From contig OZ024746.1 in assembly GCA_964016885.1 (NCBI GenBank), positions 66,216,001-66,280,000 on the forward strand: a DNA stretch of 64,000 bases, given 5' to 3'. Under the pieces are notes generated by a model, which had not been told where the DNA came from, searched no databases, and worked only from the letters and a program-made list of their open reading frames with translations. The stretch is from Eledone cirrhosa. Lineage: Eukaryota. The position numbers and the translations under genes were made by a program. Positions 27,521 to 28,535 of this stretch are shown piece by piece (the stretch's first letter is position 1; each line of letters begins with the position of its first letter).

Positions 27521-28535
27521 ATAAGAGACGTAAGATAAGAAAATTATAAAATTAACTTACTTACTAAAATATCACTTCCAACTAATTAGTTTCTGGAATG
27601 GAGTAGATACATCTTCCGAAGAAGGTGTAGCGAAACATCCCGTCATCAGGAAAGTCAATTCTCATATAAGTTTCCAGGCAAGGCGAGGACACTGGAAGCT
27701 TATTAAAAAATAAATCAGTGAATAGGAAATAGCAAAGCGTGGACTTACTTCCTAGCCATTGAGAAAATCACTGCCTCTGTGTCTGTAGCAAATTCAAAAA
27801 GAATCGAACACGTGACATCGAGGTCAATCGGTGGAAAGTGGGTTGTTAATAAGACAGGGGCTAGCCTACTACCGTAGCAGCAGTGATGGCCAGTATTGCT
27901 CGACAAATATTTTGGAGATAATAATAAAGAATTTATATCTACTAACATATATATACATACAAATGCATATCGACGCTAGCAAATATAATGGTTTTGTCTT
28001 AATAACATTGTGGTTCAATGCATGGGGTTGCAGAACAATAATATAAGAGACGTAAGATAAGAAAATTATAAAATTAACTTACTTACTAAAATATCACTTC
28101 CAACTAATTAGTTTCTGGAATGGAGTAGATACATCTTCCGAAGAAGGTGTGGAGAAACATCCCGTCATCAGGAAAGTCAATTCTCATATAAGTTTCCAGG
28201 CAAAGCGAGGACACTGGAAGCTTATTAAAAAAAGCTTATTAGAAAAAGCTGATTTATTTTTTAATAAGCTTCCAGTGTCCTCGCTTTGCCTGGAAACTTA
28301 TATGAGAATTGACTTTCCTGATGACGGGATGTTTCTCCACACCTTCTTCGGAAGATGTATCTACTCCATTCCAGAAACTAATTAGTTGGAAGTGATATTT
28401 TAGTAAGTAAGTTAATTTTATAATTTTCTTATCTTACGTCTCTTATATTATTGTTCTGCAACCCCATGCATTGAACCACAATGTTATTAAGACAAAACCT
28501 ATATATTTGCTAGCATCGATATGCATTTGTATGTA
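27521..28535 (-). mobile_element. Non-coding hammerhead-bearing element H2: tandem 522-bp monomer plus inverted arm
   Basis: 27521-27710 repeats at 28043-28232 (period 522). ~28250-28535 is the reverse complement of the unit. Ends abut (TA)n. Deleted relative at ~38365-38470. Confidence 0.85.
28312..28393 (+). ncRNA. Type I hammerhead ribozyme H2 (minus-strand copies at 27574-27655 and 28096-28177)
   Basis: acuuuc-CUGAUGA-c-GGGAUG..acacCUUC-UUCG-GAAGaugu..CAUUCC-a-GAAAC-UAAUUA-GUU-ggaagu. Stem II capped by cUUCGg; stem III is the 12-nt palindrome AACUAAUUAGUU. Confidence 0.8.

What the first reader, a model, noticed from the sequence alone, without database searches (positions are those of the whole stretch)
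27521..28535. H2: two complete hammerheads exactly 522 nt apart on one strand, plus a third on the opposite strand
Seen: minus-strand ribozymes at 28096-28177 and 27574-27655 with intact CUGAUGA/GAAAC cores, a cUUCGg-capped extended stem II and the 12-nt palindrome AACUAAUUAGUU as stem III. No credible ORF in the monomer. Known: palindromic stem III lets minimal hammerheads cleave as dimers. Inference: one read-through transcript would release a 522-nt monomer able to circularise. This is the best single test case in the window.
Basis: partly seen in the sequence, partly recalled or inferred. Interest (0 to 1): 0.7.

Follow-up and report, generated by a model that had tools for sequence, protein, structure and literature searches.

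The report
Penelope-driven hammerhead repeat with cut footprints
This is one of more than a thousand copies of a non-coding 522-base repeat with a hammerhead ribozyme motif; the ends of the copies show two fixed start points, one per mirror-image arm, likely because a Penelope-type jumping-gene enzyme copied the RNA from both sides of a DNA break, sometimes from RNA likely cut by the ribozyme and more often from RNA continuous across the cut site, probably a circle.

Summary
The three hammerheads and the 522-nt spacing are real (0 hits in 100 shuffles). The locus is one insertion of a dispersed non-coding family (2,271 exact junction motifs, roughly 1,300 loci) of a known kind: a non-LTR retrozyme, likely a non-autonomous Penelope-like element.

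Copies sit in (TA)n, often as two head-to-head arms. One arm ends at unit position 61, the other at about 180 (62 of 65). An autonomous Penelope family next door follows the same rule (9 of 9). In 200 loci, older relatives included, both arms begin within about 11 nt after the predicted cut (controls 11 and 12), which likely records cleavage in vivo. Most arms cross the junction exactly, and repeats within an insertion share haplotypes, favouring a circular template (about 55%) over linear multimers.

No RNA data and no sequence-related autonomous partner were found. This locus is a poor natural source: its inverted arm would bury the upstream ribozyme. One stem II loop site is unexplainedly hypermutable. 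The scan reported this pattern before for other families, here and in other genomes.

The parts
27521..28232 (-). Arm 1: 712 nt, 1.36 units, from unit position 392 through one full round to fixed 3' end A (position 61), joined to (TA)n
27580..28101 (-). 522-nt unit from predicted cut to predicted cut (position 1 = 28101)
   Evidence: circular fold -128.4 kcal/mol; near-identical linear stretch z -4.8
28096..28177 (-). Type I hammerhead 1; predicted cut between 28102 and 28101
27574..27655 (-). Type I hammerhead 2; predicted cut between 27580 and 27579
28233..28248 (.). 16-nt filler at the head-to-head arm junction, a short re-copy of adjacent sequence
   Evidence: sequence
28249..28535 (+). 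Arm 2: inverted, 287 nt, from unit position 384 to about 150, where it runs into (TA)n at the unit's internal TA run, short of the usual B end at 178-181
28312..28393 (+). Type I hammerhead 3, identical to hammerhead 1; predicted cut between 28387 and 28388
27921..28041 (-). Internal copy of the stretch between fixed ends A (28041) and B (27924-27921): the 117-120 nt 'tail', holding a conserved 24-mer at 28036-28013
27629..27629 (-). Hypervariable site 20 nt after C3 in the stem II internal loop (unit 473; also 28151 minus and 28338 plus)
27468..27523 (.). (TA)n target tract, left; shared with the 3' end of the neighbouring Penelope element
28530..28748 (.). (TA)n target tract, right
21856..27466 (+). 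Neighbouring Penelope-like element (pLTRs 21856-22420 and 26948-27466; 784-aa frame with RT and GIY-YIG at 23667-26021). No shared sequence with the unit; used as positive control for the two-end rule

Best explanation
This is one insertion of a non-coding, hammerhead-bearing 522-nt repeat family with two fixed 3' ends, likely mobilised in trans by a Penelope-like RT/GIY-YIG protein that would nick both strands of (TA)n and likely prime one cDNA at site A and one at site B of a probably circular RNA. Shown by sequence: the family, the (TA)n target, the two fixed ends assorted one per arm, arms longer than one unit, exact junction crossings, shared haplotypes within an insertion, and a class of copies whose two arms both begin at the predicted cut. 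Inferred: (1) multi-unit loci are transcribed; (2) the ribozyme cuts after GUU, likely as a dimer and inefficiently (about 0.8 for the family); (3) cut monomers are ligated to circles by a host ligase, as reported for other retrozymes (about 0.55); (4) two cDNAs are primed independently and joined head to head by microhomology (about 0.8). Cut linear RNA would give the short run-off copies, and continuous RNA would give arms of 1-4 units such as this one.
For: Family size: 2,271 and 2,311 exact matches to two 24-mers, 0 to the reversed controls. Target: 196 of 205 A or B ends abut TA tracts. Two-end rule: 62 AB, 2 BB and 1 AA among 65 classifiable two-armed joins in 127 loci not chosen for full length (p about 1e-15); 14 further joins had one atypical end and 50 loci had no such pair. 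Positive control: the neighbouring RT+GIY-YIG family has two ends 39 nt apart, one per arm in 9 of 9 two-armed loci among 30 fetched. Independent priming: 3 of 81 arm pairs share no unit positions, 61 of 81 joins overlap by 1 nt or more, and arm lengths are uncorrelated (rho -0.07, n=66). Cut footprint: 200 mirror joins with both arms starting at unit 1-11, against 11 (1 from the family) and 12 in two upstream control windows; 19 of 19 sampled such loci are family or relatives. Among the 50 listed, by eye 15 have an arm reaching the first base after the cut (within 2 nt), 7 on both arms, and 2 pass it by 5 nt or more. Continuous template: 228 crossings against 9 stops, with no true indel at the junction at about 133-fold coverage. 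Single-unit bottleneck: divergence 0.88% between rounds, 1.46% between arms and 2.26% between loci in the window's subfamily. At common polymorphic sites, rounds of one arm are both derived 78 times and split 11 times, and only 6 ordered split patterns recur (two loci each) among 249. Ribozyme constraint: N7 is the only common variant of CUGANGA; stem II has two compensatory pairs against an older subfamily; 98.2% of cells pair, against 32-53% when partners are slid.
Against: No autonomous element sharing sequence with the unit was found among about 90 Penelope-containing loci or beside about 190 family loci. The pile-up at the cut is weak in the locus samples: 8 of 104 passes against 2.8 expected (p 0.009) in a C1 census, with one of the 8 doubtful on inspection and 6 from three loci; 1 of 79 against 2.7 in the set dominated by the window's subfamily; 9 of 182 against 5.8 overall. 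The motif also covers older relatives that the control does not; only about 12 of the 50 listed are recognisably of the window's sequence type. The stop rate rises two- to four-fold at 440-520 and 600-800 nt, unlike a constant-rate rolling circle. L246, L340 and L343 have one arm that crosses a junction and then stops near the next, which fits partly cut linear multimers. L030 shows derived changes shared by adjacent units, so some units were duplicated as DNA; gene conversion is not excluded. The predicted minimum-energy fold is not the active fold (-16.0 against -4.2 kcal/mol; z 0.24). In a preprint only 1 of 9 Xenopus dimers cleaved in vitro. Covariation counts are inflated by relatedness.
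Confidence: 0.6

Rival explanations
1. Same Penelope-driven twin priming, but templates are linear read-through multimers, uncut or only partly cut; no circle is needed, and units are homogenised as DNA by duplication or conversion in master arrays.
For: Mixed loci L246, L340, L343. Stop rate rises after the second crossing, and stops are enriched at unit 441-460 (12 against 4.1 expected, p 0.001 uncorrected), which could be a transcription start. DNA-level duplication signs in L030. In the anole element uncut RNA is the dominant substrate in vitro (PMC11167929).
Against: No recurring round-specific alleles (6 pairs among 249 patterns); derived alleles are shared by rounds 78 to 11 across five subfamilies; 38 locus-private variants are shared by repeats within an insertion; both-arm stops at 437-451 number only 12.
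Confidence: 0.22
2. Templates are cut linear monomers and the RT jumps from the 5' end to the 3' end of the same molecule, mimicking a circle without ligation.
For: Explains both run-off copies and homogeneous rounds with one RNA species.
Against: Crossings are exact, with no true junction indel at about 133-fold coverage and 0-2 of about 82 loci discordant at junction bases. That jumps are usually imprecise is recalled knowledge.
Confidence: 0.1
3. The inverted arm arises by fold-back self-priming, as proposed for Penelope head-to-head structures, and not by a second priming at the target.
For: At this locus arm 2 is identical to arm 1 over 243 nt and shares one variant absent from the other round; joins often fall at short palindromes; proposed in PMC3846280.
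Against: Three pairs share no sequence between arms. The two outer ends are different fixed sites (62 of 65), and the A arm is often too short to template the B arm.
Confidence: 0.05
4. A DNA-level satellite or palindrome, or an assembly fold-back artefact, with a decayed or chance ribozyme-like motif.
For: The repeat lies in microsatellite-rich DNA; no Rfam hammerhead match.
Against: Dispersed on many chromosomes with variable 5' and fixed 3' ends; compensatory changes; arms differ in sequence; mirror joins near the cut also appear in short-read contigs of one sample (12 of 15 joints listed; possibly the source sample, so not independent).
Confidence: 0.03

Closest known systems
Metazoan non-LTR retrozymes (PMC7229834, parts 2-4 of 6 read; bioRxiv 10.64898/2026.07.22.740005, parts 1-3 of 5 read)
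   Same: Non-coding tandem unit with one type I hammerhead; dispersed monomers to multimers; co-occurs with Penelope elements; a circular template and Penelope mobilisation are proposed there.
   Different: Unit of 522 nt, above the 150-450 bp of the first paper and inside the 51-972 bp of the second. Long stem II flanked by an extra C and A, GUU triplet, 10-nt palindromic stem III. Two-armed insertions with fixed ends and cut-site run-off are not described in the parts read. Expression, cleavage and circles are not shown here.
EN+ Penelope-like elements: partial tandems, inverted 5'-truncated copy, tail at one end, (TA)n targeting (PMC8557442 and PMC3846280, passages; PMC11167929, parts 1-2 of 4 and passages)
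   Same: Head-to-head inverted arm, 5' truncation, an extension on one end only, two internal RT start sites, TA-rich target, hammerhead upstream of the start sites.
   Different: No ORF. The tail is 117-120 nt against 30-40 bp. The anole study saw no difference in start site between strands and no reads ending at the cut, whereas here the sites assort one per arm and copies pile up at the cut. No autonomous partner with shared sequence was found.
Hammerheads of Penelope pLTRs, and newt/axolotl dimeric hammerheads (PMC4209133, parts 1-2 of 4 read; PMC7229834)
   Same: Extra nucleotide between A9 and G10.1, G10.1-C11.1, enlarged helix II, palindromic helix III suited to dimers, low activity expected.
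   Different: Much longer helix II with an internal loop and UUCG cap; an extra A before G12; the palindrome extends to A14-U17.

Membership tests
Type I hammerhead ribozyme | CUGANGA and GAAA core, NUH triplet, stems I-III in type I order | tested here: met
   triplet GUU, listed among active NUH sites in PMC3138052 (passages)
Type I hammerhead ribozyme | Stems kept by compensatory change | tested here: met
   stem II two pairs, distal stem one pair, stem I one-sided U-G/C-G; stem III and the cut flanks were partly fixed by how copies were selected
Type I hammerhead ribozyme | Canonical core spacing (C11.1 directly before G12) and match to an Rfam model | tested here: not met
   extra A before G12 in all subfamilies aligned; no hammerhead hit at E up to 10
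Type I hammerhead ribozyme | Self-cleavage | not testable with these tools
   indirect only: copies starting at the predicted cut
Metazoan non-LTR retrozyme | Tandem units each with a type I hammerhead | tested here: met
   73 of 196 arms exceed one unit, 10 exceed two; 52 distinct junction-to-junction units of 471-544 nt
Metazoan non-LTR retrozyme | No protein-coding capacity | tested here: met
Metazoan non-LTR retrozyme | Expressed as linear and circular monomers | not testable with these tools
   no RNA holder listed; genomic inference only
Metazoan non-LTR retrozyme | Target-site duplication | tested here: inconclusive
   ends lie in (TA)n, where a duplication cannot be read
Non-autonomous Penelope-like element | Tandem/inverted head-to-head structure with a tail on one end, 5' truncation, microsatellite target | tested here: met
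   control family
Non-autonomous Penelope-like element | Sequence homology to the pLTR of an autonomous element | tested here: inconclusive
   none in about 90 Penelope loci sampled from tens of thousands of candidates; the two hits (L214, L265) are adjacent insertions of relatives
Autonomous Penelope-like element | RT plus GIY-YIG ORF between pLTRs | tested here: not met

The most novel reading that the evidence does not exclude
The genome holds a fossil record of a whole retrozyme cycle: ribozyme-cut linear RNA, ligated 522-nt circles, and a Penelope dimer whose two RTs start 120 nt apart on one RNA. In addition the RNA carries a modified or damaged uridine in the ribozyme's stem II loop that the RT misreads on each pass, so that an RNA modification is written back into DNA as a mutation hotspot.
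Probability: 0.15. Interest if true: 0.8.

Novelty: new member of a known kind. Interest (0 to 1): 0.5.

Why it matters
The papers read call the Penelope transposition cycle undefined. They propose, but do not show in the parts read, that hammerheads cut in vivo, that circles serve as templates, and that Penelope proteins move retrozymes. This family gives countable genomic evidence on each point and exact predictions: cut position, two start sites, 522-nt product. The 120-nt tail separates the two start sites clearly, which makes it a good substrate for an in vitro assay. The single locus is an ordinary, somewhat atypical copy.

Tried and rejected
RNA evidence: no RNA holder listed. The three runs laid are contigs of one sample of unknown kind and show presence only. 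Metagenome scan for the junction motif: 0 matches. Rfam: no hammerhead hit; WsnRNA46 rejected as a long-hairpin match. A-to-I editing lead: not reproduced. Private A>G (3.7 per 1000) is not above T>C (4.3). Among variants shared within an insertion A>G plus T>C is enriched (19 of 38 against 81 of 358, p 0.0006), but T>C (13) exceeds A>G (6), which RT error would also give. A pol III B-box-like motif is not kept across subfamilies; the bacterial promoter scan is not relevant. A subfamily-specific mirror-join pattern found 0 and a second found 5. My first test for stops at the cut found none (103 of 104 passes continued); the class appeared only in a sample not selected on the junction. Age dependence of the hot site is unresolved (7 of 34 young, 11 of 34 old). 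PMC9977147 (passages) did not bear on the question.

Full report
Observation. The window lies in a 3.0-Gb animal genome rich in microsatellites; earlier scan notes call it a cephalopod, which I did not test. A descriptor needing the core, 5-bp stems I and II and UH finds these three only, and 0.0 per shuffled window in 100 shuffles. The 12-nt palindrome includes A14 and U17, so stem III is 10 nt and the triplet is GUU. An extra C follows A9 and an extra A precedes G12 in every subfamily aligned; the first is a described feature of Penelope hammerheads (PMC4209133), the second I did not see described. Rfam has no matching hammerhead model. The active fold is not the predicted minimum (-4.2 against -16.0 kcal/mol), while the intermolecular stem III duplex is -9.0. 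No ORF is conserved on the circularised unit.

Anatomy. The locus is (TA)n, then arm 1 (minus, 28232->27521, 1.36 units), a 16-nt filler, arm 2 (plus, 28249->28535) and (TA)n. The arms meet at their 5' ends. Arm 2 equals arm 1 over 243 nt; the two rounds of arm 1 differ at 3 of 190 sites.

Family. Two 24-mers have 2,271 and 2,311 exact matches. The first 100 junction matches fell in about 57 loci, which gives roughly 1,300 loci as a lower bound. Fifty-two distinct full units of 471-544 nt form seven subfamilies 4-11% apart plus one outlier, and older relatives at about 83% identity share the architecture. In CUGANGA only N7 varies commonly. Against the older subfamily, stem II shows two compensatory pairs; 98.2% of cells pair, against 32-53% with slid partners. 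Relatedness inflates such counts, and the bases round the cut were fixed by how units were picked.

Two fixed ends. With position 1 as the base after the predicted cut, 3' ends fall at 61 (A) or 178-181 (B), and 196 of 205 such ends abut TA. In 127 loci not chosen for full length, classifiable two-armed joins were 62 AB, 2 BB and 1 AA; 14 had one atypical end, as the window's own copy does, and 50 loci had no such pair. The Penelope element next to the finding (RT and GIY-YIG; young family) shares no sequence with the unit but has two ends 39 nt apart, one on each arm in 9 of 9 two-armed loci among 30 fetched. This matches the 30-40 bp tail found on one end of Penelope insertions (PMC8557442 and PMC3846280, passages) and the two internal RT start sites, with both target strands extended, of the anole element (PMC11167929). 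Three of 81 arm pairs share no positions and most joins overlap by a few bases. Two primed cDNAs joined by microhomology therefore fit better than the fold-back self-priming proposed in PMC3846280.

Cut footprint. My first test, on 57 loci mostly of the window's and one sister subfamily, found no stops at the cut (103 of 104 passes went on). A sample not selected on the junction then showed copies with both arms starting just after it. Genome-wide, mirror joins with both arms starting at positions 1-11 number 200, against 11, of which 1 is family, for positions 490-500 and 12 for 437-451. All 19 such loci fetched are family or relatives, mostly one A and one B arm. Of the 50 listed, by eye 15 have an arm reaching position 1 within 2 nt, 7 on both arms, and 2 pass it by 5 nt or more. 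Limits: the motif covers older relatives that the first control misses (about 12 of 50 are recognisably of the window's type); a short palindrome at positions 8-15 helps joins; per-pass excess is modest (8 of 104 against 2.8, one doubtful) and absent in the window-subfamily set (1 of 79 against 2.7). The likely reading is that the RT ran off RNAs whose 5' end the ribozyme made.

Continuous template. Most passes cross the junction (228 against 9 stops, 58 of them a second or later time) and do so exactly; the three apparent indels are arm joins. Repeats within an insertion are closer than copies at different loci: 0.88%, 1.46% and 2.26% for rounds, arms and loci in the window's subfamily, and within-locus values are below between-locus values in the four other subfamilies tested. 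At common polymorphisms rounds are both derived 78 times and split 11; arms 71 and 24. Only 6 of 249 ordered split patterns recur. Each insertion therefore mostly copies one unit haplotype, as a circle predicts. Against a simple circle: stop rates rise near 440-520 and 600-800 nt; three loci look like partly cut multimers; L030 shows DNA-level duplication; conversion is not excluded. I put circles at about 0.55, and both template types may be used.

This locus as a source. A transcript entering from outside would pair all 82 nt of the upstream ribozyme with arm 2 in the predicted fold. Arm 1 starts only about 55 nt before that ribozyme. It is more likely a product than a source; the promoter is not located.

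Unexplained. The site 20 nt after C3, in the stem II internal loop, differs between repeats of the same insertion in 18 of 68 loci against a 2.1% background (corrected p about 1e-12), its neighbours in 7 of 68 and 10 of 64. All four bases occur, most discordances involve T, and it recurs in five subfamilies with different flanks. A modified U misread by the RT and a DNA hotspot both remain open.

Comparison and novelty. It works like, and meets the testable features of, a metazoan non-LTR retrozyme (PMC7229834, parts 2-4 of 6; preprint 10.64898/2026.07.22.740005, parts 1-3 of 5), and carries Penelope insertion marks. Cleavage and circles were not testable, and no partner with shared sequence was found. 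Circle-templated insertion is proposed in PMC4209133 and PMC7229834 but not shown in the parts read. In searches I saw no paper on cephalopod retrozymes, and 'twin priming' did not occur in the 15 listed of 32 papers. Supplements were not read and may hold similar motifs. Earlier unchecked scan notes report the same two-armed pattern for other families in this genome and cut-site run-off in other genomes; none covered this sequence. They are not counted as support. Verdict: new member of a known kind, with useful mechanistic footprints; interest 0.5.

Noticed in passing
window 21856-27466 (+): Penelope-like element of a young, abundant family (96-97% protein identity among the top 80 hits) with a C-X4-C-X2-C linker before GIY-YIG. 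No CUGANGA lies in its pLTRs. Its 3' end shares the TA tract with the finding, and its family obeys the two-end rule with a 39-nt tail.
   Followed up: partly
window 19648-21275: Two-armed insertion of another Penelope family: GIY-YIG remnant 20124-20597, inverted pLTRs, short hammerhead-like motif at 20977 (+) and 19918 (-). Longer relatives at L260, L261, L264.
   Followed up: partly
window 38355-38492: Short two-armed copy of an older relative of the finding's family (78-91% identity).
   Followed up: partly
window 16640-17700, 30380-30560, 34490-35270, 41200-41450, 43110-43150: Further hammerhead-like motifs of other repeat families, several as inverted pairs in TA tracts; 43119 (+) looks like a compact core with a short stem II.
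   Followed up: no
window 34466-34490: A stub of about 18 nt matching the long 3' end of the neighbouring Penelope family between TA tracts: a very short truncated insertion.
   Followed up: no
window 3233-6581 (+): Broken non-LTR retrotransposon with an RT domain (RVT_1, E 1e-13) and an asparagine-rich start.
   Followed up: no
L019-L021, G000:C1:349.32-349.39 Mb: Family insertions repeated at about 12.4-kb and 24.9-kb spacing, part of a larger tandem duplication.
   Followed up: no
L347-L349, L351, L353-L355: Hairpins of an unrelated repeat family that matched the control pattern; they may be the stem II of another ribozyme family.
   Followed up: no
unit 441-460 (window about 27661-27642): 5' ends are enriched just before the ribozyme core (12 against 4.1 expected, uncorrected); possible transcription start or RT pause.
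   Followed up: partly
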